Source: an uncultured Chryseobacterium sp. (GTDB lineage Bacteria; Bacteroidota; Bacteroidia; Flavobacteriales_F; PHOS-HE28). Taken from it: 60,592 bases of DNA. The translations under genes were made by a program, and so were the position numbers. Under the pieces are notes generated by a model. That model saw only the letters and a program-made list of their open reading frames with translations, did no database searches and was not told the origin of the DNA. Positions within the stretch are counted from its first letter, which is position 1. Each line of letters begins with the position of its first letter. The DNA lies in contig CAYZBO010000005.1 of the NCBI GenBank assembly GCA_964476665.1, positions 1-60,592 of the forward strand, in the 5' to 3' direction. Shown piece by piece: positions 25,237 through 59,728 of the stretch.

Positions 25237-25239
25237 TTC

Positions 25240-27624: not shown

Positions 27625-27632
27625 TTTAATTC

Positions 27633-31966: not shown

Positions 31967-31992
31967 TATCTTCCGCACAGCAAACGAGAACC

Positions 31993-34659: not shown

Positions 34660-34673
34660 CACGTAGTTTTCAC
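34660..34673 (+). promoter_or_regulatory. Degenerate copy (CACGTAGTTTTCAC) of the conserved intergenic motif core
   Basis: It shares CACGT-N-TTTTCAC with the three strong copies and lies 107 nt upstream of the ATG at 34780. The -7-like TAACCTTTG at 34700-34708 has a spacing 3 nt longer than in the others. Confidence 0.25.
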
Positions 34674-34779
34674 AGGGGGCGCGGCCTTCGCACCCCCCCT
34701 AACCTTTGTTCTATTGCCTTGGGGCCTGCGCCCGACTTAGGTTGCCGTGCCGTTCGCTTGCCCCGGACGGTATACGACC

Positions 34780-40700: not shown

Positions 40701-43266
40701 CCAGGGCGGTGACTGCGACGACACCGACGAGACCATCAACCCCGGCGCCGCCGACCCCTGCGATACCATCGACCAGGACTGCAGCGGCGGGCCCGTGCTC
40801 AGCACCTGGTTCGTGGACAACGACGGTGACGGCTTCGGCAACGACGCCACCACCACGCAGGATTGCACGCAGCCCACCGGGTACGTGGCCATCAGCGGGG
40901 ACTGTGACGATACCAACAGCGATGTCTTCCCCGGCAATGGCTGCAGCAACTGCACGCTCACCGAGCAGGCGTGGCTCGCTGCGAACCAACAGACGCTGCT
41001 GGCGGCCGTGAACGACTGCACGCTGCAATGCTTCGGCGACCCCACCTGCATCGCCAGCTGTCTGCAGAGCAGCGGTGTACCACTGGGTGCCGTGTGCCTC
41101 AGCTGCATCGATGGCTACCTCCTGTGCGTACAGGACAACTGCAGTATCCAATGCCTCAACTCACCGGAATTCTGCTTCAGCTGCCAGGTGCAGGAGGGCT
41201 GTCTGGCCGCGCTGGCCAGCTGCATGGGCCAGGTGGATGCCGATGGCGACGGTTGGTGGGCCGGCAGCGACTGCGACGACAGCAACGGCAGCATATTCCC
41301 CGGGGCCACCGAGGTCTGCGACGGCGTGGACAACGATTGTGACGGCGATACGGACGAAGGGCTCAGCGTGACCTACTACACCGATGCGGACGGCGATGGC
41401 TTCGGCCTGGACGGCACGGAGATCACCGGCACCTGCGACCAACCGCCCGGCACGGCCACCCAGGGCGGCGACTGCGACGATGCGGACGACACGGTGTTCC
41501 CCGGCGCGCCGGAGCTCTGTGACGGCATCGACAACGACTGCAACGGCGAGACCGACGACAACGCGGGCACGCTCTACTACACCGATGCCGACGGCGATGG
41601 CTACGGCGATGATGCCACGGGCCAGTTCTCCTGCACGCCCATCCCCGGCACGGTGACCCTGGGCGGCGACTGCAACGATGCCAACGACGCCATCAACCCT
41701 GGCGCGGCCGACCCCTGCGATGCCATCGACCAGGACTGCAGCGGCGGACCGGTGCTCACCACCTGGTACCAGGACAACGACGGTGATGGCTTCGGCAACG
41801 ATGCGGTGAGCCTCAGCGATTGCGTGCAGCCCGTGGGCTACGTGGCGCAGCAGGGCGACTGCGACGACAGCAACAGCGACCTCTTCCCGGGCAACGGTTG
41901 CAGCACATGCAGCGTGACCGAGCAGCAGTGGCTCGCCACCAACCAGCAGACCCTGCTGAACGCGCTGAACAGCTGCGCCCTGCAGTGCCTCACGGGCGAT
42001 CCGGGGTGCATCAGCAGTTGCCTGCAGGATGAAGGGGTGCCGCTGGGCGCCTTCTGCCTCACCTGCGTGGAGGACTACGTGCTGTGCTGGCAGGGCAACT
42101 GCCCGATCCAATGCCTCGGCAGTGAGCAGGCCTGCCTGGAATGCCAGCTGCAGAGCGGCTGCTTCGCCACCTTCGCCAGCTGCCTGGGCATGGTGGACGC
42201 GGACGAGGATGGCTGGTGGGCCGGCAGCGACTGCGACGACAACGATCCTGCGGTGAACCCGGGCGCGAGCGAAGTGTGCAACGGGGTGGACGATGACTGC
42301 GACGGCACCGTGGACAACAACACCGGCGATGCCTACTACCCCGATGCGGACGGCGATGGCTTCGGCGACAGCGATGGCATGGTGCTGTCCTGCACCCCCG
42401 TGCCCGGCTTCATCACACAGGCCGGCGACTGCAACGACAACGACGCCACGGTGAACCCCCTGGGTACGGAGACCTGCAACGGGCTGGACGATGACTGCGA
42501 TGGCGAGGTGGATGAGGATTGCGTGCTGCTGGACCTGAAGGTGCTGCTGGACGGTCCGTACAGCCCCAGCACCGGCCTGATGAACGACGGCCTGCGCGCC
42601 CTGGGCCTGGTGCCCACCACGGAGCCCTACAGCGCGCTCGGCTACAGCTACACGGGCGGCAGCGCCACTACGACATCGGCTGTCGTGCTGGCCACCACCG
42701 GTCCGGATGCCATTGTGGACTGGGTGGTGGTGGAGCTGCGGGCCGGCACCGACCCCACCAGCGTGGTACACAGCCGCTGTGCCCTGCTGCAGCGCGACGG
42801 TGATGTGGTGGACCTCGACGGCATCAACCCGCTGAGCCTGCAGGCTGCGCCGGGCGATCTGTACGTGGCGCTGCGCCACCGCAACCACCTGGGGGTGATG
42901 ACCGCGGTGCCCTTCCTGCTGAGCAACACGGTCACCACGATCGATCTGCGCACTGCGGCGGAGGCCTGCTTCGGGGCCGATGCGCGGCGCAGCGTGAGCG
43001 GTGCCTTCCCCGCCACCACCTTGTGGACCGGCGATGTGGACCGCAACAACGTGGTGCGCTACACCGGCCCCGCCAACGACCGCGACCCCCTGCTGCAGGC
43101 CATCGGCGGCTCGGTGCCCACCAACACCACCACCGGCTACCTGCCGCAGGACGTGAACATGGACGGCACCGTGAAGTACACCGGTCCGGCCAACGACCGC
43201 GACCCCATCCTGCAGACCGTGGGCGGCAGCGTGCCCACCAACACCCGCAGCGGCACCCTGCCCTGA
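34780..43266 (+). CDS. Giant secreted multidomain protein. Domain order is S8 (subtilisin-like) peptidase, MopE-like DNDCDG metal-binding motif arrays, LNR-like Cys modules, a thioredoxin-like domain, Cys-rich helical modules, and the shared C-terminal module.
   Basis: The ATG at 34780 gives the signal peptide MTHLYLRSCARLFLALCLLLCTLPSFAQQ. The S8 triad contexts are GIVDA, EHGTMVAGV and GNSFAVPHVAGA. About 17 copies of C(D/N)G.D(N/D)DCDG..DE..(W/Y)Y.DADGDG(F/Y)GD are present. Confidence 0.9.
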   Translation: MTHLYLRSCARLFLALCLLLCTLPSFAQQSWRPGEVLLLLRKDARPEAVRTELQRRLPTAVVLKEMTPLGRDSRYHLVRLDGTGIDEPTLERLLAQAPGVEATSLNYVLELRAQPNDALYADQWGMAAIDVEPVWNITTGGSMANGRRIAVGIVDALVQTTHPDLADNISPASTYAGEGSEHGTMVAGVVGATGNNGIGVSGVNWDVDLVPLGYGGTMAGAISGFEGALSLREDFTNSAGTEGALVVAVTVSWGLLGTSCGFGYAIFEDLGNAGVLAITAGPNEPVDIDVVPDFPSGCPNSNNIAVTCIGPNGENPFAVGNSTIHLQAPGLEIPTTSVNGGYVVTDGNSFAVPHVAGAVALLYSAPCPAFAQLVMTDPAAAAQLVKSAILQGGAPVPGGNNITITGRQLNVLGAYQMLMAQCIQTCTDLTMTFTPTEGTVAEAVITGPQGNVVTTASGPVLQGCWEDGCYQASFSAAGGAPVGGSWSVTDGAANVVDSGTSANGQVSFSFGTIVPGCTTPNSGNFDPGANCNDGSCCPGDIVRVKVLAEDLVSEGTAQVTITVGGSVVHDGPVAITAGADPEFGVGYAVGTVELCAPDGCMSIAVTSGSTPLHEVGFVYIGNDGPIPFQLADGHLGAVGNAGGLEVCDGQDNDCDGEVDEDFRWYADADGDGFGDPATLQIACSPVPGAVQNGIDCNDADATITAVGSACDDGDPNTLNDFVRSNCQCAGIDQGSCPPGEIPDCNGNCAPADWLGDGLCNNGSMEWQGNLIVFTCAELNNDGGDCFDPCGPEICDGLDNDCDGEVDEDHTWYTDADGDGFGDDATATVSCLPPLGAVLVGGDCDDGNNAVHPGATEACDTIDNDCDGAVDEDFIWYEDADGDGLGNDATVQFSCTPLSGFVHVGGDCNDSDAGIAGVGAACDDGNPATVYDIVRTDCQCQGFIQGTCPPGQIEDCNGNCAPVFWLADGLCDDGSSMWEGNLIFLNCPGLSYDMGDCSIPCLPETCDGLDNDCDGAVDEDFVWYTDADGDGYGDDATAQASCVPVPGAVQVAGDCDDANAAVQGGVVLYVGSAFGITSGTAHYVITQGATTHEGDMALTDTGADYAAGSVSVCLGAGCFSVQVTPNDVPLGEVAVVQMDLNPGQSGGFPVADGFFGSATPPASELCDGLDNDCDGEVDEDFRWYADADGDGFGDASTMQISCTPLPGFVQVVGDCNDADPGLTAIGMACDDGDPNTVNDTVRPDCSCLGLLPGECPPGEIADCNGNCAPAEWVGDGFCDDGSFEHNGNFIFFNCPEFGNDGGDCGGSGCVTEVCDGLDNDCDGEVDEDFVWYTDADADGFGDFATATISCTPLVGAVQLGGDCDDNDPATYPGAPEGCEGVDRNCDGIVPGANPNDVYSPDWTATATTGQSVNLYDLLAQGKTVVLDLFAAWCPPSQQMLTANFLQDWNAHMGPDGTDQIRIVAIAVDQSAGSVTPFIEEAQWPVIVQDGESFGPLYNAIGMYDNAVPTLLMICPDRSVTMLYPQPDDLPYTGLFNYDPAAGLALVNERCGCRSTCVANIGCMDPNSCDYDPDATCPGPCAQAQEWFADNDGDGVGGSSLGTACTQPPNSAPTGGDCDDDNASVQQGFTLIVLTNDPGDFGTAHYVIQHGGGILEGDLDLPQETEGIGELQVCIANGCYTISISQNDVLLWEEAYLLLPQAPEEPVVFSTFDGYQGGASAEVCDGIDNDCDGTVDEGCGNCSDADRAWILANQATIEGIVGNTFLSCGATEQCLLDALLAGTPLPESCATCVAQRYVCILESCLAQCVGGFGAPPCVECVNATCNAAYFACAGFTDNDGDGVVAELDCDDSDPNVFPGANEICDTIDNDCDGLIDETPTTYYADLDGDGWGDENNTVEGGCSPPNGATSQVGDCDDSDPDIYPGAPEICNGIDDDCDGEVDDNAGIAYYVDADGDGYGDINSEQFSCTPIPGLITQGGDCDDTDETINPGAADPCDTIDQDCSGGPVLSTWFVDNDGDGFGNDATTTQDCTQPTGYVAISGDCDDTNSDVFPGNGCSNCTLTEQAWLAANQQTLLAAVNDCTLQCFGDPTCIASCLQSSGVPLGAVCLSCIDGYLLCVQDNCSIQCLNSPEFCFSCQVQEGCLAALASCMGQVDADGDGWWAGSDCDDSNGSIFPGATEVCDGVDNDCDGDTDEGLSVTYYTDADGDGFGLDGTEITGTCDQPPGTATQGGDCDDADDTVFPGAPELCDGIDNDCNGETDDNAGTLYYTDADGDGYGDDATGQFSCTPIPGTVTLGGDCNDANDAINPGAADPCDAIDQDCSGGPVLTTWYQDNDGDGFGNDAVSLSDCVQPVGYVAQQGDCDDSNSDLFPGNGCSTCSVTEQQWLATNQQTLLNALNSCALQCLTGDPGCISSCLQDEGVPLGAFCLTCVEDYVLCWQGNCPIQCLGSEQACLECQLQSGCFATFASCLGMVDADEDGWWAGSDCDDNDPAVNPGASEVCNGVDDDCDGTVDNNTGDAYYPDADGDGFGDSDGMVLSCTPVPGFITQAGDCNDNDATVNPLGTETCNGLDDDCDGEVDEDCVLLDLKVLLDGPYSPSTGLMNDGLRALGLVPTTEPYSALGYSYTGGSATTTSAVVLATTGPDAIVDWVVVELRAGTDPTSVVHSRCALLQRDGDVVDLDGINPLSLQAAPGDLYVALRHRNHLGVMTAVPFLLSNTVTTIDLRTAAEACFGADARRSVSGAFPATTLWTGDVDRNNVVRYTGPANDRDPLLQAIGGSVPTNTTTGYLPQDVNMDGTVKYTGPANDRDPILQTVGGSVPTNTRSGTLP
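35128..35871 (+). other. S8 peptidase catalytic domain within the giant protein
   Basis: Asp (VGIVDALV), His (GSEHGTMVAGVVG) and Ser (DGNSFAVPHVAGAVALL) occur in the canonical order. An I9-like propeptide segment lies upstream. Confidence 0.8.
38968..39345 (+). other. Thioredoxin-fold (TlpA/AhpC-TSA-like) domain with a monothiol WCPPS motif
   Basis: GKTVVLDLFAAWCPPSQQM...IRIVAIAVDQS...VPTLLMICPDRSV has a redoxin-like layout. WCPPS is encoded at 39070-39084. Confidence 0.6.
42520..43263 (+). other. Shared C-terminal module, copy A (about 248 aa)
   Basis: VLLDGPY...GL.P..EPY.ALGY...AIVDWVVVELR...ALLQRDGDVVDLDG...YVALRHRNHLGVMT...GDVDRNNVVRYTGPANDRDPLLQ.IGG...DVNMDGTVKYTGPANDRDPILQTVGG. It aligns along its full length to copies B and C. 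Confidence 0.85.
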
Positions 43267-43274
43267 TCGCGGCC
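43033..43274 (+). repeat. 242-bp highly similar tract (3-prime end of the module plus 8 nt past the stop), copy 1
   Basis: Aligns to 52126..52367 at a constant offset of 9093 with few substitutions. The identity continues through TGATCGCGGCC. Confidence 0.85.
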
Positions 43275-43350
43275 TCTCCCCCGTTGATCGATGTACGCCG
43301 CCCGGCCCTTGTGGTCGGGCGGTGTGCGTGGGGGGGTGAGATCTCACCTG

Positions 43351-43374
43351 CCCGACCACGTCTTTTTCACCTGT
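43351..43374 (+). promoter_or_regulatory. Conserved intergenic motif CCCGACCACGTCTTTTTCACCTGT (copy 1)
   Basis: The same 24-mer, with 1-2 changes, occurs at 52383 and 59705. A -7-like TTCTTTCG ends at 43402, exactly 45 nt after the C of CACGT as in the other copies. The ATG is at 43406. Confidence 0.5.
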
Positions 43375-43405
43375 TGCAGGAGGGGGCACCCCGCTTCTTT
43401 CGCAG

Positions 43406-44029
43406 ATGATGCAAGCCAGGAACGGACCATCCATCCTCATCCTCAGCAACGAGCGCCTGTTCGCCGAGGGTTTGAAAGCCCTGCTGGAGCGTCGGCGGGG
43501 ATACGTGGTGGAGCTCATCACCACCATGGATGACCTGCTGCACCAGGTGCAGGAGCGCACCGCAGACCTGGTGCTGGTGGACCGGTCCCTGTTGCAGATG
43601 CACATCCTCCCCCTGGAGCGGATGCTGCGCAATGGACGGAGCACCGGGAAGTACATCGCCCTGTGCGCGAACCAGCAGGCAGGTCTCCTGCCAACGTGGA
43701 AGGAAATGGGCTATGCGGGAGCCGTCAAGCGCGGGGACAGCGCGGCCGACCTGTTCCGCACCGTGGAGGCCGTGCTTGCCGGCCGGGACCCGACACCTGC
43801 GGACAGCACCGCACACATGCACCCGAACGGGTCGTCCATGCCGCTTACACGCCGGGAAGCCGAAGTGGTGCTGCACCTGGCCAACGGGCTGTGCAGCCGC
43901 CTGATCGCGCTTCAGCTGGGGATCAGTCCCGCCACGGTGTTCACGCACCGGCGCAACATCGCCCGCAAGCTCGGCACGCGCAGTGCCGCCCACCTGATCA
44001 GCGAAGCACAGAACATGGGCCTCATCTGA
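43406..44029 (+). CDS. LuxR/NarL-family response regulator (atypical REC plus LuxR-type HTH)
   Basis: The C-terminal HTH is LTRREAEVVLHLANGLCSRLIALQLGISPATVFTHRRNIARKLG. The N-terminal REC-like domain has DLVLVD (a candidate phosphoacceptor) but SNE in place of the usual DD acidic pair. Confidence 0.85.
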   Translation: MMQARNGPSILILSNERLFAEGLKALLERRRGYVVELITTMDDLLHQVQERTADLVLVDRSLLQMHILPLERMLRNGRSTGKYIALCANQQAGLLPTWKEMGYAGAVKRGDSAADLFRTVEAVLAGRDPTPADSTAHMHPNGSSMPLTRREAEVVLHLANGLCSRLIALQLGISPATVFTHRRNIARKLGTRSAAHLISEAQNMGLI

Positions 44030-44316
44030 AACCGCCTTCCTGATGGAACGACCCGGCGCACCACAGCTCACCCCCGAACCATGAACGGATCGCTCCCCGC
44101 CCCCATGGTCGCTCTCATCAGCGCGTGCCGGACCGGGCCCCCTGTGGAGCATGCATGCATCCCAAGCGCTGCAGCTGCCGAACAGGCTCCTGCGGGCACG
44201 CACCATGCCCCGGCATGCGCGGACAAAAAAGCGGCCGCTGTAGTGCGCATACCTGAAACTGGGTATGCCTGATCATCTGAAGGACACCAATTTGCCCATC
44301 CCCAATTCATGCCAAC

Positions 44317-47300
44317 ATGACCCGTTCCTTGTTCCTGATCGCAGCGGTGGCCCTCGTGCTGGCCGGAAATGCCCAGACCAACGTCTCCGGCACCATTGCC
44401 AGCAACACCACCTGGACCACCACCGGCAGCCCTTACACCGTTACGGCCCAGCTCACCATCAACGCCGGGGTCACCCTCACCATCGACCCCGGGGTGCAGG
44501 TGCTGATGAACAGCACCAGCATCCAGGTGAACGGAACGCTCGATGCCGATGATGTGGATTTCGCAGCCAACGGTAGCCCCAACGGCTGGAACATCAGCGT
44601 GAACAACGGCGGGCTGGCCACGCTCACGGATTGCAGCATGGCGAACGGCAATCAGATCGGCGTGTCCGTCGGTGGCACTGCCACGTTGAGCGGCACCGGA
44701 CTCACGAACCTGGCCATCAATTCCGGGGGGACCATCAATATGACCGGTGGTGCTGTGACCAAACCGGGCAGCACCGCTGTGACCATTTCGGGCTCTGCCA
44801 CCTTCAATGGAACCTCCATCTCGAACAGCACCACAGCGGTTGCAGTGAACGCGGGTACGGCATCTTTCACCGGCGTTATCGTGGGTGCCAGCACCAATGC
44901 CTACACCCTCTCGGCTGGCACCACCACCATCCAGAGCCTCACCATCAGCGGCACCACCTACCCATTCACCTTCAATGGTCCCGCTGCGTTAGTGAACAAC
45001 GGTGGACACAGCATCAGCGGCAACACCTTCAATGTGGCCCGCACCGCCTTCAACACGCTGTCGACCAACTGGACAATGCCCTCGCTGCCCATCCCATGGT
45101 ACATGGAAAGCAGCAGCACGTTCACGGTGAACAGCGGCATCACATGGACCATCGCCTCCAACAACATCATCAAGCTGGGGGACAGCAAGCAGCTGGCCAT
45201 CAATGGCAAGGTGGTGGCCAACGCGGCCGCGGGTGAGAGCATCGTGTTCACCAGCTTCCGCGACGACAACCAGGGGGGCGACAGCAACGGCAACGGCTCG
45301 GGCAATGCGCCCAGCGTGGGCATCTGGCAGGGCCTGCGCTTCAGCAACCTGGCCGACCCCACCAGCTCCCTCACCCGCTGCACCTTCTTCTTCGCAGGCG
45401 AGTCCACCACCCGCGGCGCGGTGGACGTGAACACCATCGCCCCCAGCATCGTGGGCTGCACCTTCCAGCTGAACCGCTTCGGCATCACCCTGCGCAACGG
45501 CAGCCAGGCGCTGATCCAGGACTGCACCATCGGCAGCAGCACCAGCACCCCCATCGCCATGACGCTGGACTGCAACCCGCAGTTCGTGAACAACACCTTC
45601 TCCTTCATCGACAACCAATACGACGCCATCGGCATCCTCACCACCACGCTCACGGCGGACAACACGCTGGTGCAGCGCAATGTGACCGGCATCAACAACG
45701 TGACCTACGTGTTGCTTGGCACGATCGAGATCCCCGCAGGCCGCACGCTGAACATCGTGCCCGGCATCGTGATCAAGGCCACGAGCAGCCGCGACCTCAT
45801 GGTGGCCGGCACCCTGAACATGCTGGGCACCGCCGGGGAGCCGATCACCTTCACCAGCATCGCGGACGACAACGTGGGCAACCCGAACGACACCAACAAG
45901 GATGGCAACCTGAGCCTGCCTACCACTGCTGCGAACAGGCCTGGTGGCATCGGCATCAATACCGGAGCCACGGTGGCCCTGGAGCATGTGAACCTGAGGT
46001 TCTGCTCTTCGAGTACAACGGTCTTTGGCGTTGGATCATGGAGCCCCTTCATCAATTCTTGGATGGTCTTCGACCTCGGCGGAAGCGTCAGCTTGCAGAA
46101 CTGCCTGCTCAGCGATGGCACCTACGGCTACCAAGGCTCCGAGACCTCGGCCGCGGTCTTCACCAACGTCACCTTCCAGAACCTGTCGCAGGCACCCATC
46201 TCCATCCAGGCGCCGGCCAACCCCAGCTTCACCAACGTGGCCTTCACCAACGTGGGCCTGCGTGCACTGGGCATCCTGGGCGGCACCATCACCGTGAACG
46301 GATCGCTGCAGCAGCGCACCCTCGCGGGCTTCACCAACATCACGCAGGTGCTGTTGGGCAACCTTACCGTGGCGGCCGGCACCTACCTGGAGGTGCAACC
46401 CGGCGTGGTGTTGAAGGTAGGGCAGAGCGCAAGTTCCATTGAGGTGAACGGTGGCTTCCGCCTTTTTGGGACCGCAGGGCAACCAGTGGTGATCACCGAC
46501 TGGCGCGATGATGCCTACGGCAATCCGGCCGACACCAACGAGGATGGAGGCAACACAAGCCCGAACCCGGGCAACTGGGTCGGTATCCGGTACAATGCCG
46601 CGGCCGATGATGCTTACAATTCTGTGCAACACACGATCATCCGCTTTGCGGGGCAGGGGAGTTGTGATGCGGGTGCACGGGGGGCGGTAACCTACGTGAA
46701 TGCTGGCGGCACGATGAACAACAGCACCATCAGCAGCGGCATGTTCGGTCTGGTCTTCATCGGCAACTCGGACCCCGCCATCAGCACCATCAGTATCGAC
46801 AACTGCCGGATCGATGCCTTCGCGCAGTCCTGGGAAGCCACTCCGGCATTGAACAACATCAGCCTGGGCAATCAGAACGGCAGCAATGGGATCCGCCTGC
46901 TCAACGCCACCATCACCAGCGACCTCACCATCGGTCCCGGCTTCATCAACGGGGTGGGACCGGTGAGCTACCTATCCTCTGAACTCACGGTCGCCACTGG
47001 AGCGACCCTCACCATCCTGCCCGGGACTAACTTCAAATGGGGATCGCAGAACTACCCCAACTGGAGTTCCTGTGGATCGTCTTGTGTGTACTGGACCATC
47101 AATGGCGCCTTGGTCGCGGTGGGCACTTCGGGCCAACCCATCGTCTTCACTTCCTTCAAGGACGATTCGGTGGACGGGGATACCAATAACGACGGCAACT
47201 CTTCGACCCCCCAGGCAACCGATGGTACCAGAATAGTCTTTACGAGCACGTCCAATGCGGCATTGAACCAACTTCGACATTGCCAGTTGAGGTATTCTTC

Positions 47301-49785
47301 GTACGGTTGTGGAGGAGACGACGATCACGGTGTCATTCAGTTCCACAGCAGCGGTGGCATGGTCCAGGACTGCATCATTGATCTCACGCAATACGCAGCA
47401 TTCCATTTCCGGGGAAGCGCCAACCCCACTGTCCAGAACAACTTCATCAACAATGTCCTGTCCGATGCTCCTGTGTTGATGAGCGCGTTCGCCAACCCCA
47501 CGCTGCTGAACAATACGATAAGCAATGTGAGCACGTTCGCGATCAGGTTAAGAAGGGAGACGTGGAGCACCAGTGGAACGATACCCTTGAGGGCACTGGG
47601 GGGATACTATCCCATTCCCTATGTTGTCAATCAAAGCTTTTTCGGGTCGTCCTTTGAAATAACCAACAACGCGGTCATAACCATTCAACCCGGCACTGTG
47701 TTCAAGAGCGGAGGTTACACCATGTTCCGTGTGCAGAACGGAGGTAGACTGATGGTCGAAGGAACAGCCTCGGAACCGGTGGTATTCACGTCGATAAACG
47801 ATGATTCTGAGGGCTCTTTGGGGGACACCAATCAGGATGGCAATGCAACATCACCAAGCATCCTTGGTGCGAATGGTCACATTACGTTCGAGGGTACCAG
47901 CGATGACCTGAGCAGGATCGAACATGCACGCTTCAAGTTCATGGAAAAGCCGATCGTCTCCATCAATGCTCGGCCACGGATCCGCAACAGCAGCTTCCAG
48001 AGCTGCACCTATGGCATCGAAGCACGTGGTACCGAAGGCCCCTTCATGCCCTACAACACCTTCCACGACCTGAGCCAGACGCCGGTGCTCACCTCCATCC
48101 TGAGCATACCGGACAGCCTGATGGGCAACGTGATGACCGGGACCACCAAGAAGATGTTGCAATTGGATTCGGAAACCCTGTTGCAGGACCGCACCCTGCA
48201 CAAGCTGGATTTCGGCGATGTGAGCAATATCCCCTACTACATCGACGGTACTTTCACGGTGGGCACCAACGCCAACCTGAGCATTGCACCCGGTGTGCGG
48301 ATGAAGTTCGGCAGCGGTGGCCGCCTGGTGGTGAACCGCGGCCTGCTGGCCCTGGGTGGCCCCACACCGGACAGCCTGATCGTATTCACCCACGAGGCGG
48401 ACGACTTCTACGGCGGTGACAGCAACAGCAACGGGCCGGGTGCGGTGCCCAGCGGTGGCTGGCAGGGCATCACCTTCGAGAACGCAGCGGTGGACCCATC
48501 CTGTCTGCTGGACCACTGCGTGATCCGCTACGCCAACAGCAGTACCTACGGCGGGGTGCGCTGCAACAGTGCATCGCCCACCATCACCAATACCCGCTTC
48601 CAATTCTGCCACAGTGGTGTGCGCGCCGAGGGGGTGAGCAACCCGCTGGTGAACTGGTGCGACTTCCAGAGCCTCACTACGCAAGGGGTGAACAACGTGA
48701 GCCAGAACTTCAACATCAACGCGGAGAACTGCTACTGGGGCCACCCCAGCGGTCCCACGCACAGCGGCAACCCCGGCGGCACGGGCGTAAGCGTGACCAA
48801 CCAGGTGGACTACCTGCCCTTCCAGACCGGTCCCAACGCGCCACTGATGGGCGATGTGAGCCTGAACGGCACGGTGACGGCCTTCGATGCCTCACTGGTG
48901 CTGCAGAGCACGGTGAACCTGATCACCCTGAGCCCCCAGCAGGAGCTGGTGGCCGAGGTGAGCGGCAACGGCACGGTGACGGCCTTCGACGCCTCGCTGA
49001 TCCTGCAGTACACCGTGGGGCTCATCGACAACTTCCCGGTGACGCAGAACATAGGTGGTGGTGGCGGTGGCGGCATGCAGCAGATGAAGCTGCTCACCGA
49101 GCCGGCCACCCTGCTGCTGCCCAGCGTACAGGTGGCACCGGGCGACACCTTCTTCGTGGACGTGCTGCTGGGCGATGTGGCGAGCCTGCTGAGCCTGGAG
49201 GCCACCCTGGGCTACGATGCCGGCCTGCTGGAGCTGCTGGAGGTGGAGCCCCTGCTGCCGCTTTCCTTCAGCGCGCTGCATGCCACGCCCAGCCCGGGCA
49301 TCCTGATGCTCTCGGCGGCTTCGGCCTTCCCGCTCACCAGCGATGCGGCCGCGTTCCGCCTGCACTTCGTGGCCAACGCCACCGTGACGGAGAGCACCGC
49401 CAGCCTGCTGGACCCGCTGGTGGTGATCCTGGATGAGCAGGATGCCACGGCGCAGGCCCTGGCCGGCGAGGTGCTCATCACGCCCGGCATCACCACGAGC
49501 ATCATCGACGCATCCTCCCTGCCGCCCCTGGGCATCTACCCGAACCCCAGCACCGATGGCTTCACCGTGGTGTGGAGCGGTGCCACGGCGGGCGAAGCGG
49601 TGGAACTGCAGCTCTTCGACAACGCCGGTCGCATGGTATATGCCCTGCGCACCATGCCCGCACAGGGCAGCCGTGGCGTGGAGCTGCGGGTGGAGCGCGG
49701 CGCACTGGGCGGTGTGAGCGGCCTGCTCTTCGTGCGCTTGGCGCAGGGTGCGAACGTGGTGTGGGACCGGGTGGTGCTCCAGTAA
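44317..49785 (+). CDS. Giant secreted parallel beta-helix repeat protein with a dockerin module, a cohesin-like module and a T9SS type A sorting domain
   Basis: Signal peptide MTRSLFLIAAVALVLAGNAQ. There are many repeats of the pattern (V/I).F.G......I.N....G... and DD..G(D/N)(S/T)N.DG segments. See the sub-features for the C-terminal modules. Confidence 0.9.
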   Translation: MTRSLFLIAAVALVLAGNAQTNVSGTIASNTTWTTTGSPYTVTAQLTINAGVTLTIDPGVQVLMNSTSIQVNGTLDADDVDFAANGSPNGWNISVNNGGLATLTDCSMANGNQIGVSVGGTATLSGTGLTNLAINSGGTINMTGGAVTKPGSTAVTISGSATFNGTSISNSTTAVAVNAGTASFTGVIVGASTNAYTLSAGTTTIQSLTISGTTYPFTFNGPAALVNNGGHSISGNTFNVARTAFNTLSTNWTMPSLPIPWYMESSSTFTVNSGITWTIASNNIIKLGDSKQLAINGKVVANAAAGESIVFTSFRDDNQGGDSNGNGSGNAPSVGIWQGLRFSNLADPTSSLTRCTFFFAGESTTRGAVDVNTIAPSIVGCTFQLNRFGITLRNGSQALIQDCTIGSSTSTPIAMTLDCNPQFVNNTFSFIDNQYDAIGILTTTLTADNTLVQRNVTGINNVTYVLLGTIEIPAGRTLNIVPGIVIKATSSRDLMVAGTLNMLGTAGEPITFTSIADDNVGNPNDTNKDGNLSLPTTAANRPGGIGINTGATVALEHVNLRFCSSSTTVFGVGSWSPFINSWMVFDLGGSVSLQNCLLSDGTYGYQGSETSAAVFTNVTFQNLSQAPISIQAPANPSFTNVAFTNVGLRALGILGGTITVNGSLQQRTLAGFTNITQVLLGNLTVAAGTYLEVQPGVVLKVGQSASSIEVNGGFRLFGTAGQPVVITDWRDDAYGNPADTNEDGGNTSPNPGNWVGIRYNAAADDAYNSVQHTIIRFAGQGSCDAGARGAVTYVNAGGTMNNSTISSGMFGLVFIGNSDPAISTISIDNCRIDAFAQSWEATPALNNISLGNQNGSNGIRLLNATITSDLTIGPGFINGVGPVSYLSSELTVATGATLTILPGTNFKWGSQNYPNWSSCGSSCVYWTINGALVAVGTSGQPIVFTSFKDDSVDGDTNNDGNSSTPQATDGTRIVFTSTSNAALNQLRHCQLRYSSYGCGGDDDHGVIQFHSSGGMVQDCIIDLTQYAAFHFRGSANPTVQNNFINNVLSDAPVLMSAFANPTLLNNTISNVSTFAIRLRRETWSTSGTIPLRALGGYYPIPYVVNQSFFGSSFEITNNAVITIQPGTVFKSGGYTMFRVQNGGRLMVEGTASEPVVFTSINDDSEGSLGDTNQDGNATSPSILGANGHITFEGTSDDLSRIEHARFKFMEKPIVSINARPRIRNSSFQSCTYGIEARGTEGPFMPYNTFHDLSQTPVLTSILSIPDSLMGNVMTGTTKKMLQLDSETLLQDRTLHKLDFGDVSNIPYYIDGTFTVGTNANLSIAPGVRMKFGSGGRLVVNRGLLALGGPTPDSLIVFTHEADDFYGGDSNSNGPGAVPSGGWQGITFENAAVDPSCLLDHCVIRYANSSTYGGVRCNSASPTITNTRFQFCHSGVRAEGVSNPLVNWCDFQSLTTQGVNNVSQNFNINAENCYWGHPSGPTHSGNPGGTGVSVTNQVDYLPFQTGPNAPLMGDVSLNGTVTAFDASLVLQSTVNLITLSPQQELVAEVSGNGTVTAFDASLILQYTVGLIDNFPVTQNIGGGGGGGMQQMKLLTEPATLLLPSVQVAPGDTFFVDVLLGDVASLLSLEATLGYDAGLLELLEVEPLLPLSFSALHATPSPGILMLSAASAFPLTSDAAAFRLHFVANATVTESTASLLDPLVVILDEQDATAQALAGEVLITPGITTSIIDASSLPPLGIYPNPSTDGFTVVWSGATAGEAVELQLFDNAGRMVYALRTMPAQGSRGVELRVERGALGGVSGLLFVRLAQGANVVWDRVVLQ
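48850..49041 (+). other. Dockerin type I-like module (two EF-hand-like segments)
   Basis: GDVSLNGTVTAFDASLVLQSTV and EVSGNGTVTAFDASLILQYTVG both fit the D/E-x-S-x-N-G-x-V-x-x-x-D calcium loop followed by a helix. Confidence 0.75.
49087..49488 (+). other. Cohesin-like module
   Basis: LLLPSVQVAPGDTFFVDVLLGDVASLLSLEATLGYDAGLLELLEVE...AAFRLHFVANATVTES fits the cohesin pattern. It is separated from the dockerin by a Gly7 linker and followed by a T9SS tail (49528..49782: LGIYPNPSTDGFTVVW...LLFVRLAQGANVVWDRVVLQ). Confidence 0.6.
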
Positions 49786-49809
49786 GGCACGGCCACAACA
49801 GCCCCTGCC

Positions 49810-52359
49810 ATGAAGAAGCTCCTCACCTTCCTCGCCGCCGTGGCCGTGCTGGCCACGGCGCGCGCCCAGACCGTGAACATCGCGGCGGGCACCATCACCG
49901 GCCAGTTCCCCGGCGATGTGTTCGACCTGCCCATCACGGTGAACACCGACCTGACCGGCCTGAACGTGTTCAGCTTCCAGCTGAGCGTGAGCCGGCCATC
50001 GTTCTGCACCTTCCAGTCCATCATCGTGGAGCCGGGGGACCTGCTGCAGGCCTGGGGTACCCCGGCGGCCAGCGCGGGCACCAACGTGCTGGTGAGCGGT
50101 GCCGGTGCCGTGCCCCTGAGCGGCAGCGGCGTGCTGTTCCGTATCCGCTTCCAGGCCGTGACGAACGGCACCGCCACGGTATCCTTCACACCCACGGCCA
50201 GCAACTTCCTGAACGAGGGTACACCGGGGCTCGCCTTCATCAGCGGTTCGGTGCAGGTGCAGCCCTTCCCCACCATATCGGTGAGCCCCAGCTCGGCCGT
50301 GCAGGTCATCGGGGAGAGCCTTAGCCTGAGCGCGTCAGGCGGCCAGGCGCCCTACACCTTCAGCACGCTGCACCCGGCGGTGGGCACGGTGAGCGGTAAC
50401 CAGTGGAACGCCGTGGGCCAGGGCTTGGGCAAGGCCCAAGCCAATGACGCCAACAGCTTCAGTGGTGCCACCAGCGGCTGGTACGATGTGCGCACCTTCC
50501 AGATGGGCATCGGCAACGCCACGGGGCCGGTGACGCAGGAGCTGCGCGTACCGATCACCATGCAGAACCCCTCGGGCGCATCGTTCTTCTCCGGCGAGCT
50601 GCAGGTGAACGCCAGCACGCAGATCCAATTGAGCGGCGTGGATGTGCAGGGCTATTTGCTGGAGGGCGCCACGCTCTTCACCAACACGGCAGGAGGCAAC
50701 GTGCAACTGGCCTTCAGCGGCACAACGGCCATCACACCCGCAGCGGCCACGGACACCTTGTGCTGGCTGAAGTTCACCAAGGTGAACACTGCCAGCGGTG
50801 GCTTCTACTCGCTGAGCTATGGAAGTGCCTTGTTCGATGAGCTGCTGAACGCGCGCTTTGGCACGGGCAACGTCAACTTCCAGGCGCTGCCCAACATCAC
50901 CATCTCGCCCAACACGGCCACGCGGCAGGCGGGGCAGACGCAGCAGTTCACGGCATCGGCCGCTGCGGTGCCGCCGCTCACCTGGGGCGTGACGAACCCG
51001 GCGGTGGGCAGCGTCAACGCCAGCGGCCTGTTCACCGCCCTGAACGGCGGCACCACGCAGGTGACGGTGACGGACGCCATCGGCAACACCGCCACGAGTG
51101 GCACCATCAGCGTGCACGATGCGGTGCTGCAGATGGTGAGCGGGCAGGGGCCGGTGGGCGGGCAGGTTTGGGTGCCGGTGGTGCTGGGCCCCTCGGTGAA
51201 CAACGAGCAGGTGTTCTCCTACCAGCTCACCTTCGGGTTCAATGCGTCGCAGTTGTCATTCCAGGCCTGGGAGATCAACGGCACGTTGAGCAATGGATGG
51301 ACGCCGCTGGTGGTGCCGGGCACGGGGCAGGTGACGGTGGTGGCGGCGGGCGCCACGCCCTTCCAGCCGGGCGGGCTCATCGGCTTCCTGCGTTTCCAGC
51401 TGCAGCCGGGGTTCAACAACGGCCAGACATCGAGCGTCACCAGCGTGAGCCGCCTGTTCAACGAGGGCGATCCGGTGGTGATCCACCAGAACGGCACGGT
51501 GACGGCCAGCAACGGCGCATGTCCCACCAGCGGCTGCACCAACCCTTACGCCTGCAACTACGACCCGGCCGCCACGTGCGAGGATGGGAGTTGTGCGTTC
51601 AACCTGCCCTGCGCGGTGGGGGTGCAGGTGCGGGCCATGTTGGAAGGACCTTACGCCAGCGTTCCCGGCACCATGAACGATGCGCTGCGCAGTGCGGGGC
51701 TCATCCCCACTGCGGACCCCTACCCGGCACTGGGCTATGTGCACGTGGGTGCTGGCGGTGGTACCGTGGCACCAGCGGTGTTCAGCGTGGCGGGCAACAA
51801 TGCCATCGTGGACTGGGTTGTGCTGGAGTTACGGTCCGCAGGTGATGCCGCTGCGATCGTGGCCACACGGTCCGCCCTGGTGCAACGCGATGGGGATGTG
51901 GTGGCGCTGGACGGGGTCTCTCCCGTATCGTTCACCATGCCGCCGGGCAACTACTTCGTGGCCCTGCGGCACCGCAACCACCTCGGAGTGATGACCGCTG
52001 CACCGGTGACCCTGGGCGCTGTGCCGGCCGTGGTGGACTTCACTTCGGGCTCCACCACCACCTACGGCAGCGACGCTCAACGAGCGATCACCGGCACCTT
52101 CCCCACACGTGCGCTCTGGGCCGGCGATGTGGACCGCAACAACGTGGTGCGCTACACCGGCCCGGCCAACGACCGCGACCCCCTGCTCCAAGTCATCGGC
52201 GGCAGCGTGCCCACCAACACCACCACCGGCTACCTGCCGCAGGATGTGAACATGGACGGGGTGGTGCGCTACGTGGGCGCTGCCAACGACCGCGACCCCA
52301 TCCTGCAGACCGTGGGCGGCAGCATACCCACCAACACCCGCTCCGGCACCCTCCCCTGA
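49810..52359 (+). CDS. Scaffoldin-like secreted protein: three cohesin-like modules interleaved with two Big_2 Ig-like domains, then the shared C-terminal module
   Basis: Signal peptide MKKLLTFLAAVAVLATARAQ. The Big_2 domains are ISVSPSSAVQVIGESLSLSASGG.APYTFS and ITISPNTATRQAGQTQQFTASAA....WGVTNPAVGSVNASGLFTA. The gap to the upstream gene is 24 nt. Confidence 0.9.
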   Translation: MKKLLTFLAAVAVLATARAQTVNIAAGTITGQFPGDVFDLPITVNTDLTGLNVFSFQLSVSRPSFCTFQSIIVEPGDLLQAWGTPAASAGTNVLVSGAGAVPLSGSGVLFRIRFQAVTNGTATVSFTPTASNFLNEGTPGLAFISGSVQVQPFPTISVSPSSAVQVIGESLSLSASGGQAPYTFSTLHPAVGTVSGNQWNAVGQGLGKAQANDANSFSGATSGWYDVRTFQMGIGNATGPVTQELRVPITMQNPSGASFFSGELQVNASTQIQLSGVDVQGYLLEGATLFTNTAGGNVQLAFSGTTAITPAAATDTLCWLKFTKVNTASGGFYSLSYGSALFDELLNARFGTGNVNFQALPNITISPNTATRQAGQTQQFTASAAAVPPLTWGVTNPAVGSVNASGLFTALNGGTTQVTVTDAIGNTATSGTISVHDAVLQMVSGQGPVGGQVWVPVVLGPSVNNEQVFSYQLTFGFNASQLSFQAWEINGTLSNGWTPLVVPGTGQVTVVAAGATPFQPGGLIGFLRFQLQPGFNNGQTSSVTSVSRLFNEGDPVVIHQNGTVTASNGACPTSGCTNPYACNYDPAATCEDGSCAFNLPCAVGVQVRAMLEGPYASVPGTMNDALRSAGLIPTADPYPALGYVHVGAGGGTVAPAVFSVAGNNAIVDWVVLELRSAGDAAAIVATRSALVQRDGDVVALDGVSPVSFTMPPGNYFVALRHRNHLGVMTAAPVTLGAVPAVVDFTSGSTTTYGSDAQRAITGTFPTRALWAGDVDRNNVVRYTGPANDRDPLLQVIGGSVPTNTTTGYLPQDVNMDGVVRYVGAANDRDPILQTVGGSIPTNTRSGTLP
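49873..50265 (+). other. Cohesin-like module 1
   Basis: VNIAAGTITGQFPGDVFDLPITVNTDLTGLNVFSFQLSVS...SGVLFRIRFQAVTNGTATVSF. Confidence 0.6.
50488..50883 (+). other. Cohesin-like module 2
   Basis: VTQELRVPITMQNPSGASFFSGELQVNASTQIQLSGVDV...DTLCWLKFTKVNTASGGFYSLSY. Confidence 0.5.
51106..51510 (+). other. Cohesin-like module 3
   Basis: GGQVWVPVVLGPSVNNEQVFSYQLTFGFNASQLSFQAWEI...GGLIGFLRFQLQPGFNNGQTSSV. Confidence 0.5.
51622..52356 (+). other. Shared C-terminal module, copy B
   Basis: AMLEGPY...GLIPTADPYPALGY...AIVDWVVLELR...ALVQRDGDVVALDG...FVALRHRNHLGVMT...GDVDRNNVVRYTGPANDRDPLLQVIGG...DVNMDGVVRYVGAANDRDPILQTVGG. Confidence 0.85.
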
Positions 52360-52367
52360 TCGCGGCC
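52126..52367 (+). repeat. 242-bp highly similar tract, copy 2
   Basis: See 43033..43274. Confidence 0.85.
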
Positions 52368-52382
52368 ACCAGGAACACATGA

Positions 52383-52407
52383 CCCGACCACGTCTTTTTC
52401 ACCTTGT
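52383..52407 (+). promoter_or_regulatory. Conserved intergenic motif CCCGACCACGTCTTTTTCACCTTGT (copy 2), with a downstream -7-like TTGATTTG
   Basis: CACGT starts at 52389 and TTGATTTG is at 52427-52434, so it ends at +45. TTG at 52404-52406 gives a 20-nt spacer. The downstream CDS starts at 52540. Confidence 0.5.
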
Positions 52408-52539
52408 CATGGCCCGCTCCTGCATGTTGATTTGTCCCGCTGTGAACGCCGTACCACCCACCGCATGCCGCTCCCGCGGTACGCATGGATGATGCGGAGC
52501 GCACCGCACCCGAAGTAGAACGTTCAACCTCCCTTGGAA

Positions 52540-59704: not shown

Positions 59705-59728
59705 CCCGACCACGTATTTTTCACCTGT
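59705..59728 (+). promoter_or_regulatory. Conserved intergenic motif CCCGACCACGTATTTTTCACCTGT (copy 3), with a downstream -7-like TTGATTTG
   Basis: CACGT starts at 59711 and TTGATTTG is at 59749-59756, ending at +45 as in copy 2. The ATG at 59778 is 22 nt downstream. Confidence 0.5.

What the first reader, a model, noticed from the sequence alone, without database searches (positions are those of the whole stretch)
44317..52359. Cohesin/dockerin-type modules on T9SS-sorted giant proteins: candidate cellulosome-like surface scaffold in a Bacteroidota genome
The 1822-aa beta-helix protein carries a textbook dockerin (two D/E-x-S-x-N-G-T-V-T-A-F-D loops, 48850-49041). A Gly7 linker, a cohesin-like module (49087-49488) and a type A T9SS tail follow, so it should be exported and attached to the outer surface. 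Twenty-four nt downstream, a protein has the scaffoldin layout cohesin-Big_2-cohesin-Big_2-cohesin and ends in the shared module, whose twin segments are dockerin-like. That makes four cohesin-like receptors and up to four dockerin-like ligands (one canonical dockerin plus three shared modules on a protease, a scaffold and an SprB-like adhesin) within 23 kb. They lie under a common promoter motif next to a dedicated regulator. Cohesin and dockerin modules outside cellulosomes have been noted bioinformatically. A T9SS-anchored assembly recruiting a protease and adhesins would, as far as I know, be undescribed. No glycoside hydrolase is present, so the function would not be cellulolytic.
Basis: inference. 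Interest (0 to 1): 0.8.

Follow-up and report, generated by a model that had tools for sequence, protein, structure and literature searches.

The report
T9SS-anchored cohesin–dockerin gene pair
Two adjacent genes of an uncultured Flavobacteriales-type bacterium encode secreted surface proteins that carry real cohesin and dockerin modules (the "plug and socket" parts of cellulosomes), and the same pair recurs in many related bacteria, so it is probably an uncharacterised, non-cellulolytic surface assembly, but binding was not shown.

Summary
Gene A (44317-49785) encodes a 1822-aa beta-helix protein ending in a dockerin, a Gly7 linker, a cohesin and a T9SS type A tail. HMMs and an AlphaFold model support these parts, though the tail scores just under the curated cut-offs. 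Gene B starts 24 nt downstream (49810-52359). It reads cohesin-Big_2-cohesin-Big_2-cohesin plus a 245-aa C-terminal module. An S8 protease and an SprB-like protein carry the same module.

New here: the A-then-B pair recurs in 9 loci (GC 36-67%). B always has three cohesins, and A-like proteins form a large family. The pair is therefore the functional unit. A's dockerin most likely binds cohesins of B and/or A on the cell surface.

The shared module has no Pfam or NCBIfam model and always ends at the stop codon (R-x-x-Q-L-P). It is abundant in uncultured Flavobacteriales. It resembles an X-dockerin dyad only weakly. Other B orthologues carry a T9SS tail or a dockerin-like twin (sub-threshold for Dockerin_1) at that position, so an anchoring or docking role is plausible but unproven.

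Recruitment of the protease and adhesin is weakly supported. T9SS-anchored scaffoldins were already proposed for Cloacimonadota. Verdict: a real, moderately novel variant; binding is untested.

The parts
43406..44029 (+). NarL/LuxR-type response regulator (Response_reg + GerE), 287 nt upstream of gene A
   Evidence: Pfam GerE 55 bits, Response_reg 33.6 bits; NCBIfam response-regulator families. The motif CACGTCTTTTTCAC lies at 43357-43370, just upstream.
44247..44268 (+). Perfect palindrome GCATACC-N8-GGTATGC, 49 nt upstream of A's ATG; candidate operator (inference)
   Evidence: the only exact copy in the window. A 2-mismatch copy lies at 52463-52484. The count is not significant by shuffles.
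44317..49785 (+). Gene A: 1822-aa secreted beta-helix protein with a C-terminal dockerin-cohesin-T9SS tail cassette
   Evidence: Six beta-helix units each end in FTSxxDDxxGxxxDTNxDG.
48850..49041 (+). Dockerin (aa 1512-1575): two 12-residue Ca-type loops, each followed by a helix
   Evidence: Dockerin_1 29.7 bits (cut-off 22.9). AF2 helices at model residues 57-67, 75-81 and 91-101. Family HMM 116 bits.
49054..49074 (+). Gly7 linker (aa 1580-1586)
   Evidence: Read directly from the translation. The AF2 pLDDT dips here.
49087..49488 (+). Cohesin of A (aa 1591-1724)
   Evidence: PF00963 25.3 bits (cut-off 24.1). Foldseek to type I cohesins 6kgd_A, 1g1k_A, 2vn5 and 2xdh at TM 0.75-0.79.
49534..49782 (+). 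T9SS type A C-terminal sorting domain of A (aa 1740-1822)
   Evidence: TIGR04183 22.4 bits (cut-off 23). PF18962 25.8 bits (cut-off 27). Family HMM 46.5 bits. AF2 beta-sandwich. NCBI names homologues 'T9SS type A sorting domain-containing protein'.
49810..52359 (+). Gene B: 849-aa scaffoldin-like protein, 24 nt after A, with no terminator predicted in the gap
49870..50265 (+). B cohesin 1 (aa 21-152)
   Evidence: PF00963 20.4 bits as an isolated segment. The family HMM gives a partial hit of 16.5 bits.
50266..50493 (+). Big_2-like linker 1 (aa 153-228)
   Evidence: Not found by Pfam. It is 31% identical to linker 2 (E 1e-6). It is scored as Big_2 in homologues.
50494..50889 (+). B cohesin 2 (aa 229-360)
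   Evidence: PF00963 18 bits. Family HMM 23.1 bits.
50890..51105 (+). Big_2 (aa 361-432)
   Evidence: PF02368 34.9 bits.
51118..51516 (+). B cohesin 3 (aa 437-569)
   Evidence: PF00963 17 bits. Family HMM 39.6 bits.
51517..51621 (+). Cys-rich linker (GCTNPYACNYDP..C.DGSC), also present in B homologues P0122, P0123 and P0125
51622..52356 (+). Shared C-terminal module of B (aa 605-849): a beta-sandwich followed by duplicated Ca-loop-like segments (twin at 52108-52356)
   Evidence: AF2 pLDDT 93, pTM 0.91. No Pfam or NCBIfam hit. More than 1448 homologues. Twin halves match at P 1.9e-26.
42526..43263 (+). Shared module at the C-terminus of the 2839-aa S8 protease with MopE repeats (gene 34747-43266)
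   Evidence: 415 bits.
56836..57573 (+). Shared module at the C-terminus of the 839-aa Cys-rich SprB-like repeat protein (gene 55057-57576)
   Evidence: 385 bits.
34660..34673 (+). Motif CACGTAGTTTTCAC upstream of the protease gene; the other copies are at 43357-43370, 52389-52402 and 59711-59724
   Evidence: 4 exact copies, 0.15 expected. Extended consensus CCCGACCACGTNTTTTTCACCT.

Best explanation
A and B are a conserved, probably co-transcribed pair of surface proteins. Both have Sec signal peptides. A carries a T9SS type A tail, so it should be exported and attached to the outer face of the outer membrane. This step is inferred from what is known of T9SS type A cargo.

A's single dockerin is internally symmetric and type-I-like. 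It most likely binds, with calcium, to the cohesins of B (three sockets) and/or to A's own cohesin on a neighbouring molecule. That would cluster up to three large beta-helix proteins on one B scaffold. The product would be a non-enzymatic, adhesin-like surface array, not a cellulosome.

In most lineages B is itself held by a T9SS tail. In this lineage that tail is replaced by a 245-aa module that is strictly C-terminal: a beta-sandwich plus a duplicated Ca-loop segment. The module probably also serves surface retention or docking. Whether it plugs into a cohesin is open.

Shown: domain identities, folds, gene order and conservation. Inferred: export, binding partners and function.
For: Domain identities come from curated HMMs and models. 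A and B are 24 nt apart with no terminator predicted between them.

The A-then-B order recurs in 9 loci with GC from 36% to 67%: the window, L001, L004 (two copies), L005, L089, L090, L091 and L092. The neighbouring genes differ between loci. Every complete B-like protein has three cohesins, and every A-like protein has one dockerin just before the C-terminal tail.

A-like proteins form a large family. More than 100 of the best 150 cluster representatives (50% identity) are 1,580-2,300 aa and end in the whole cassette.

In the window, only A has a canonical dockerin and only A and B have cohesins. The two dockerin segments are nearly identical (NGTVTAFDASL[VI]LQ), as in dual-binding type I dockerins.

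At the position of B's module, orthologues carry a T9SS tail (P0127, P0129, P0130, P0132, P0133). One (P0125) carries a dockerin-like twin that is sub-threshold for Dockerin_1.
Against: No binding was tested, and AlphaFold-Multimer was not available. The three B cohesins are individually below Pfam's cut-off (17-20 bits). A's T9SS tail is just below the curated cut-offs. Many non-cellulosomal cohesins and dockerins have no known partner. There are four cohesins for one dockerin, so some sockets have no identified ligand. A dockerin placed about 15 residues before a cohesin in the same chain could bind in cis. The function of the beta-helix passenger is unknown: there was no PDB sequence match.
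Confidence: 0.55

Rival explanations
1. The shared C-terminal module is a dockerin-type ligand (an X-dockerin analogue). It plugs the S8 protease, the SprB-like protein and B itself into the cohesins of A and B. The result would be a T9SS-anchored protease/adhesin complex.
For: Foldseek's best PDB matches for the module model are type II X-dockerin dyads: 4u3s_B (E 0.022, prob 0.93), then 2b59_B, 5g5d_B and 4fl4. The module's twin profile aligns in register with both dockerin repeats, with one 4-residue insertion per loop. The local P is 3.4e-4 and the score 23.9, against 10.6 +/- 2.6 (max 20) for 150 column shuffles. Controls against cohesin and CTD profiles are weaker. P0125 has a dockerin-like twin at the same position, sub-threshold for Dockerin_1. 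All three module-bearing genes lie within 23 kb of the cohesins.
Against: Dockerin_1 finds nothing in the module at E<=10. TM-scores are only about 0.5. None of 80 other module loci has a cohesin or an A-type dockerin within about 6 kb. There are at least 568 module loci in species representatives, while B-like cohesin proteins were absent from that collection. The protease and SprB-like genes do not accompany the pair elsewhere. The helices after the loops are short (7 residues).
Confidence: 0.17
2. The shared module is a lineage-specific C-terminal sorting or anchoring domain and is unrelated to cohesins. It would be a further class of T9SS-linked or outer-membrane-retention signal.
For: In 102 of 115 HMM hits, including secondary and fragment hits, the module ends exactly at the stop codon, with a conserved R-x-x-Q-L-P end. 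It occupies the position of the T9SS tail of B orthologues. It sits on typical T9SS-type cargo that has no other tail: an S8 protease, SprB-like repeats, and MopE, Kelch and P_proprotein domains. There are several copies per genome, often clustered.
Against: It is three times larger than known CTDs. It has no hit to type A (TIGR04183), type B (TIGR04131) or type C (NF033708) models at E<=1 (PMC12398890). Stand-alone proteins of about 315 aa consist of little more than a signal peptide and the module, which is odd for a pure export tag.
Confidence: 0.3
3. A's dockerin binds A's own cohesin, either in cis as a clasp or in trans to give head-to-tail polymers. B is a separate scaffold for unknown ligands.
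For: The dockerin and cohesin are always adjacent in A-like proteins, joined by a short flexible linker (Gly7 here). The three-domain model has pTM 0.66.
Against: The model's coordinates and PAE were not available, so no contact could be read. The strict A-then-B linkage with three cohesins in B argues for a shared function. Cellulosomal proteins that carry both modules usually avoid self-binding (established knowledge).
Confidence: 0.2
4. The modules are only structural. The cohesin-like beta-sandwiches act as spacers and the dockerin-like Ca loops as stabilisers. There is no specific cohesin-dockerin pairing.
For: Most non-cellulosomal cohesins and dockerins have no demonstrated partner (Peer et al. 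2009, as cited in PMC8542988 and PMC6487960). The B cohesins score low against Pfam.
Against: One dockerin is conserved with cohesins in the same two-gene unit across GC 36-67% genomes. Dockerin positions are nearly invariant: G47, D48, D59, D82, D93, L98, Q99, Y100 in alignment A1.
Confidence: 0.12

Closest known systems
Clostridial cellulosome type I cohesin-dockerin systems (e.g. C. thermocellum CipA, C. cellulolyticum, C. acetobutylicum CaCohA2-Doc0917)
   Same: The cohesin fold matches (TM 0.75-0.79 to 6kgd_A, 1g1k_A, 2vn5, 1aoh). The dockerin is duplicated and has the F-hand form. One protein carries several cohesins separated by Ig-like linkers.
   Different: The organism is a Gram-negative of Bacteroidota type. 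Anchoring is by a T9SS tail, not SLH or sortase. There is no glycoside hydrolase or CBM. Only one canonical dockerin is present, and it sits on a non-enzymatic beta-helix protein. That same chain carries a cohesin right after the dockerin.
Proposed cellulosome-like complex of 'Ca. Stygibacter' (Cloacimonadota), PMC8542988
   Same: It belongs to the FCB group. [quoted passage not shown] The proposed function is not purely cellulolytic and includes S8 and C25 peptidases.
   Different: There, the dockerins sit on enzymes and the scaffoldin (3,755 aa) has CBMs. Here, the dockerin sits on a beta-helix protein encoded next to a three-cohesin partner. The local protease carries the non-canonical module, not a dockerin.
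Cag_2037/Cag_2038 of Chlorobium chlorochromatii (bioRxiv 10.64898/2026.03.19.712371)
   Same: Adjacent genes in an FCB-group bacterium encode complementary cohesin and dockerin modules on large surface proteins with Ig-like repeats. Binding was inferred by structure modelling, and a cell-contact role was proposed.
   Different: Export there is by T1SS, with an RTX/alginate-lyase passenger and a type II-like cohesin. The domain order and protein families differ.
Non-cellulosomal cohesin and dockerin of Archaeoglobus fulgidus (PDB 2xdh)
   Same: The modules lie outside any cellulosome. The cohesin fold matches (TMt 0.79).
   Different: It is archaeal, has no T9SS, and has different partner proteins.
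Type II X-dockerin dyads (CipA X-Doc 2b59_B; A. cellulolyticus ScaA X-Doc 4u3s_B)
   Same: These are the best, though weak, structural matches of the shared module: an Ig-like beta-sandwich followed by a duplicated Ca-loop segment at the C-terminus of a cohesin-bearing scaffoldin.
   Different: E is 0.02-0.3 and TM about 0.5. There is no Dockerin_1 HMM hit. The loops are 4 residues longer and the helices shorter. The module also occurs on hundreds of proteins with no cohesin nearby.
T9SS C-terminal sorting domains, types A, B and C
   Same: A's tail is type A-like. The shared module is likewise strictly C-terminal and replaces the type A tail of B orthologues.
   Different: The shared module is 245 aa, against 70-100 aa for known tails. 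It matches none of TIGR04183, TIGR04131 or NF033708.

Membership tests
Cohesin (PF00963) | Match to the family HMM above the curated cut-off | tested here: met
   A module: 25.3 bits vs 24.1. B whole protein: 38.1 bits with 3 stretches. The single B modules score 17-20.4 bits, below the cut-off. A family HMM built from A-type cohesins gives 16.5, 23.1 and 39.6 bits.
Cohesin (PF00963) | Nine-stranded jelly-roll beta-sandwich fold | tested here: met
   Tested for A's cohesin only. The AF2 model has pLDDT of about 90 or more over most of the domain. Foldseek gives prob 1.0 and TM 0.75-0.79 to solved cohesins. The B cohesins were not modelled.
Dockerin type I (PF00404) | HMM match above the cut-off; two duplicated 12-residue Ca-binding loops, each followed by a helix | tested here: met
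   29.7 bits vs 22.9 for aa 1512-1575. The loops are D-V-S-L-N-G-T-V-T-A-F-D and E-V-S-G-N-G-T-V-T-A-F-D. The model shows three helices.
Dockerin type I (PF00404) | Calcium-dependent binding to a cohesin | not testable with these tools
   No multimer prediction and no experiment were available.
T9SS type A CTD (TIGR04183 / PF18962) | HMM match at the extreme C-terminus of a protein with a signal peptide | tested here: inconclusive
   A: 22.4 bits vs 23 and 25.8 bits vs 27, both just under the cut-offs. The position, the YPNP-type motif, the beta-sandwich model and the naming of homologues all agree.
Cellulosome | Scaffoldin with several cohesins | tested here: met
   B has three cohesins.
Cellulosome | Dockerin-bearing glycoside hydrolases and a carbohydrate-binding module | tested here: not met
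   No GH or CBM was found in A, B or the neighbours scanned. The only dockerin is on a beta-helix protein.
Shared module as a dockerin / X-dockerin | Dockerin_1 HMM match | tested here: not met
   No Pfam family at E<=10. No PDB sequence relative.
Shared module as a dockerin / X-dockerin | Duplicated Ca-loop plus helix segment, with profile and fold similarity to dockerins | tested here: inconclusive
   The duplication is clear (P 1.9e-26). hhalign to the dockerin profile gives P 3.4e-4, with 0 of 150 shuffles reaching the score. Foldseek's top hits are X-Doc dyads at E 0.02-0.3 and TM about 0.5.
Shared module as a T9SS CTD (types A, B, C) | Match to TIGR04183, TIGR04131 or NF033708 | tested here: not met
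   No NCBIfam hit at E<=1. The type C model is named in PMC12398890.
Shared module as a T9SS CTD (types A, B, C) | Strictly C-terminal position on secreted cargo | tested here: met
   102 of 115 hits end at the stop codon, with a conserved R-x-x-Q-L-P end.

The most novel reading that the evidence does not exclude
The 245-aa shared module would be a previously unrecognised, strictly C-terminal docking and anchoring domain. It could be an X-dockerin analogue, or a fourth class of T9SS-linked C-terminal domain. It would tether hundreds of secreted proteins in an uncultured clade of Flavobacteriales. In this locus it would plug a giant S8 protease, an SprB-like adhesin and the three-cohesin scaffold into a T9SS-anchored cohesin. 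That would make a true non-cellulolytic 'proteo-adhesiosome' on a Gram-negative outer membrane.
Probability: 0.15. Interest if true: 0.8.

Novelty: new variant of a known kind. Interest (0 to 1): 0.55.

Why it matters
Cohesin-dockerin pairing is the textbook way Gram-positive anaerobes build cellulosomes. Bacteroidota are commonly said to lack these parts (e.g. PMC5831590).

A two-gene cohesin/dockerin cassette conserved across the FCB group, exported by T9SS and carrying no carbohydrate-active enzyme, would show the plug-and-socket principle reused for surface architecture or adhesion on an outer membrane. It would give a defined, testable pair of binding modules.

The shared C-terminal module is a large family with no curated model (no Pfam or NCBIfam hit). 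Its role would explain how many secreted proteins of abundant wastewater Flavobacteriales are retained or sorted.

Tried and rejected
1. The exact-sequence look-up of B in the assembly collection found nothing.
With the 4 closest sequences it found no relative among GTDB species representatives. The source species could therefore not be named.
3. Peer et al. 2009 (PMC3035643) is not held in the library.
4. A PDB sequence search found nothing with the beta-helix part of A or with the module profile.
5. I considered the module as a T9SS type A, B or C tail. This was rejected on HMM evidence. hhalign of its parts against a type A CTD profile gave only P 0.016-0.51.
6. I looked for cohesins or dockerins next to 80 other module genes and found none.
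7. The sigma-70 promoter scan of 43200-52600 found nothing, and the terminator-like hits there are at chance level.
8. The palindrome upstream of A is not statistically enriched in the window.
9. Whether the dockerin packs on the cohesin in the AF2 model could not be read. Only summary values are returned, and the Foldseek multi-domain matches have rmsd above 12.
Full report
**1. What is in the sequence**

The window has 53-68% GC. The region of the finding holds two long + strand ORFs, 44317-49785 (A, 1822 aa) and 49810-52359 (B, 849 aa), 24 nt apart. Both begin with typical Sec signal peptides.

Pfam on the whole of A gives:
- Beta_helix at 6.6e-19.
- Dockerin_1 at aa 1512-1565.
- Por_Secre_tail at aa 1740-1777.

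NCBIfam gives the T9SS type A domain at 22.4 bits against a cut-off of 23.

Scanned as isolated segments:
- The dockerin reaches 29.7 bits (cut-off 22.9).
- The segment 49087-49488 reaches 25.3 bits for Cohesin (cut-off 24.1).
- The tail reaches 25.8 bits for PF18962 (cut-off 27).

B scores 38.1 bits for Cohesin in three stretches and 34.9 bits for Big_2 at aa 361-432. Its single cohesins score 17-20.4 bits. A family HMM built from the cohesins of A-like proteins finds all three B cohesins, at 16.5, 23.1 and 39.6 bits. Pfam misses the first inter-cohesin linker, but that linker is 31% identical to the Big_2 linker (E 1e-6).

**2. Structure of A's C-terminal cassette**

I aligned A aa 1466-1822 with 49 homologues and modelled it. 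The model has pLDDT 86.7 and pTM 0.66. It shows:
- a three-helix dockerin;
- a low-confidence Gly linker;
- a beta-sandwich;
- a second beta-sandwich at the C-terminus.

Foldseek against the PDB returns solved cohesins at prob 1.0 and TM 0.75-0.79. They include CaCohA2 (6kgd_A), C. cellulolyticum (1g1k_A, 2vn5), CipA (1aoh) and the non-cellulosomal A. fulgidus cohesin (2xdh).

The two dockerin loops are D/E-V-S-x-N-G-T-V-T-A-F-D. The following helices are almost identical. By established knowledge, that symmetry is seen in dual-binding type I dockerins.

**3. The pair is the unit**

A search with the N-terminal 569 aa of B found only 17 relatives. Their contigs show an A-like gene directly upstream:
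- L001 (three contigs);
- L004, with two pairs plus an extra small cohesin-tail protein;
- L005;
- L089.

Pfam confirms Beta_helix + Dockerin_1 (+ Cohesin) + a T9SS-type tail in those A-like proteins.

Starting from the A side, three further contigs each have a B-like gene just downstream: L090, L091 and L092, with GC of 46%, 36% and 51%. Three cohesins are present wherever the gene is complete.

That makes 9 pairs over a GC range of 36-67%, and the surrounding genes differ from locus to locus.

A profile of the cassette finds 9,914 cluster representatives at E<=1e-30. More than 100 of the best 150 are 1,580-2,300 aa and match the full profile at their C-terminus. NCBI names some of them 'T9SS type A sorting domain-containing protein' or 'cohesin domain-containing protein'. 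Their sources are Bacteroidales, Paludibacter, Ignavibacteriales, Calditrichia, an FCB-group bacterium and Ca. Poribacteria.

**4. The shared module**

The last 245 aa of B recur at the C-termini of two other proteins:
- the 2839-aa protein at 34747-43266 (Peptidase_S8, 15 MopE repeats, a thioredoxin-like segment);
- the 839-aa Cys-rich SprB-like protein at 55057-57576.

Family and distribution:
- It has no Pfam or NCBIfam family, even at lenient thresholds.
- It has no PDB sequence relative.
- It has more than 1448 homologues. Nearly all come from uncultured Flavobacteriales, and a few are named 'hemagglutinin protein'.
- It has at least 568 loci among GTDB species representatives, with several per genome.

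Position in the host proteins:
- In 102 of 115 HMM hits, including secondary and fragment hits, it ends exactly at the stop codon, with R-x-x-Q-L-P.
- Host proteins range from about 315 aa (little more than the module) to over 1600 aa. Genes are often clustered two or three together.

The AF2 model is one compact domain (pLDDT 93, pTM 0.91).

Is it dockerin-like?
- Its best PDB matches are weak but consistent type II X-dockerin dyads: 4u3s_B (E 0.022, prob 0.93, TM 0.48), then 2b59_B, 5g5d_B and 4fl4. Transthyretin-like beta-sandwiches also appear.
- The C-terminal 83 aa are an internal duplication (P 1.9e-26).
- Their profile aligns with both repeats of the A-type dockerin profile in register, with a 4-residue insertion in each loop. 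Local P is 3.4e-4 and the score is 23.9, against 10.6 +/- 2.6 for 150 column shuffles, none of which reached it.
- Controls against cohesin and CTD profiles give P 0.06-0.5.

In B orthologues the same position holds:
- a T9SS tail in P0127, P0129, P0130, P0132 and P0133;
- in P0125 (60% identical), after the same Cys-rich linker, a dockerin-like twin (Dockerin_1 19.3 bits, E 1.3e-3, below the 22.9-bit cut-off).

Against a general cohesin partnership:
- None of 80 module loci has a cohesin or an A-type dockerin within about 6 kb.
- B-like proteins were not found in the species-representative collection, which holds hundreds of module genes.

**5. Regulation**

CACGTNNTTTTCAC occurs four times on the + strand against 0.15 expected. 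Its extended consensus is CCCGACCACGTNTTTTTCACCT. The copies lie upstream of four genes:
- the protease gene;
- a Response_reg + GerE regulator gene at 43406-44029, which sits 287 nt upstream of A;
- p834;
- p285.

None lies directly before A or B.

A perfect palindrome, GCATACC-N8-GGTATGC, lies 49 nt upstream of A's ATG. It is a candidate operator only.

**6. Mechanism**

Shown: domain identities, folds, gene order and conservation.

Inferred:
- A is exported by the T9SS and attached to the cell surface.
- A's dockerin binds cohesins of B and/or A with calcium.
- B can hold up to three A molecules.
- The product is a non-enzymatic beta-helix array.
- The module anchors or docks B in this lineage.

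No glycoside hydrolase or CBM is present, so this is not a cellulosome.

**7. Comparison and novelty**

- Naas et al. state that Bacteroidetes genomes lack cohesins and dockerins (PMC5831590).
- Rumen surveys found dockerins assigned to Prevotella and Bacteroides (PMC6487960).
- Williams et al. proposed a scaffoldin with a T9SS CTD plus dockerin-bearing S8 and C25 peptidases in Cloacimonadota (PMC8542988).
- A 2026 preprint models an adjacent cohesin/dockerin gene pair in Chlorobiota.

I found no paper on the beta-helix-Doc-Coh-tail / three-cohesin pair or on the shared module. The library does not cover most subscription journals.

I rate this a new variant of a known kind. The wider recruitment model is unproven and less likely than not.

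Noticed in passing
window 42526-43263, 51622-52356, 56836-57573; loci L007-L086: A 245-aa module, always at the extreme C-terminus and ending R-x-x-Q-L-P, has no Pfam or NCBIfam model. It occurs in at least 568 loci of uncultured Flavobacteriales species representatives. Genes often sit two or three together, on proteins from about 315 aa to over 1600 aa.
   Followed up: yes
window 34660-34673, 43357-43370, 52389-52402, 59711-59724: The motif CCCGACCACGTNTTTTTCACCT occurs four times on the + strand, each time upstream of a gene start (protease, LuxR-type regulator, p834, p285). Chance would give 0.15. It could be a shared promoter or a regulator site.
   Followed up: partly
window 44247-44268 and 52463-52484: A perfect palindrome, GCATACC-N8-GGTATGC, lies 49 nt upstream of gene A. 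A 2-mismatch copy lies upstream of p834. It is a possible operator for the adjacent GerE-type regulator. The count is not statistically enriched.
   Followed up: partly
window 22939-29525 and 31963-32748; L091 1-1714: Three tandem paralogous sensor kinases (TPR + PF06580) share a 300-nt stretch that is 95% identical between 27025-27324 and 28920-29219. A LytTR response regulator follows further downstream (31963-32748, after a 622-aa ORF). A PF06580 kinase plus a LytTR regulator also sit just upstream of the A-like gene in L091.
   Followed up: partly
window 55927-56226 and 56503-56802: The SprB-like protein p839 contains a 576-nt tandem duplication whose copies are 95% identical over 300 nt. 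This looks like a recent internal repeat expansion.
   Followed up: no
window 34747-43266: A giant 2839-aa protein combines a Peptidase_S8 domain, 15 MopE-type putative metal-binding repeats (370 bits) and a weak thioredoxin-like segment, and ends in the shared module.
   Followed up: no
window 44317-48711: The passenger part of A consists of six beta-helix units of about 200-215 aa. Each ends in a conserved loop FTSxxDDxxGxxxDTNxDG (aa 311, 512, 726, 944, 1157, 1357), which looks like a calcium site. There is no PDB sequence match.
   Followed up: partly
L004 12357-20087 and 5178-12040: One metagenomic contig carries two copies of the A/B pair in convergent (tail-to-tail) orientation, plus an extra 268-aa protein made of one cohesin and a T9SS-type tail.
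   Followed up: partly
L087 133-1278 (protein P0125): A B-like protein, 60% identical over the region it shares with B, ends after the same Cys-rich linker in a dockerin-like twin (GDINGDLIVNVQDFLIF / ADLNEDGVVNVQDFLIF; Dockerin_1 19.3 bits, sub-threshold) instead of the shared module.
   Followed up: partly
window 6403-9675 (-), 13266-15554, 17004-22910, 52534-55038: The window is dense in T9SS cargo. Type A tails occur on a 1090-aa protein (T9SS-cargo-like), a 762-aa PKD-like protein and p834. A type B tail (TIGR04131, 45 bits) occurs on a 1968-aa PKD-repeat protein.
   Followed up: partly
window 43367-44206 (-): The 279-aa ORF on the minus strand has no family hit. It overlaps the regulator gene on the + strand, so it is most likely a shadow ORF of this high-GC region.
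   Followed up: partly
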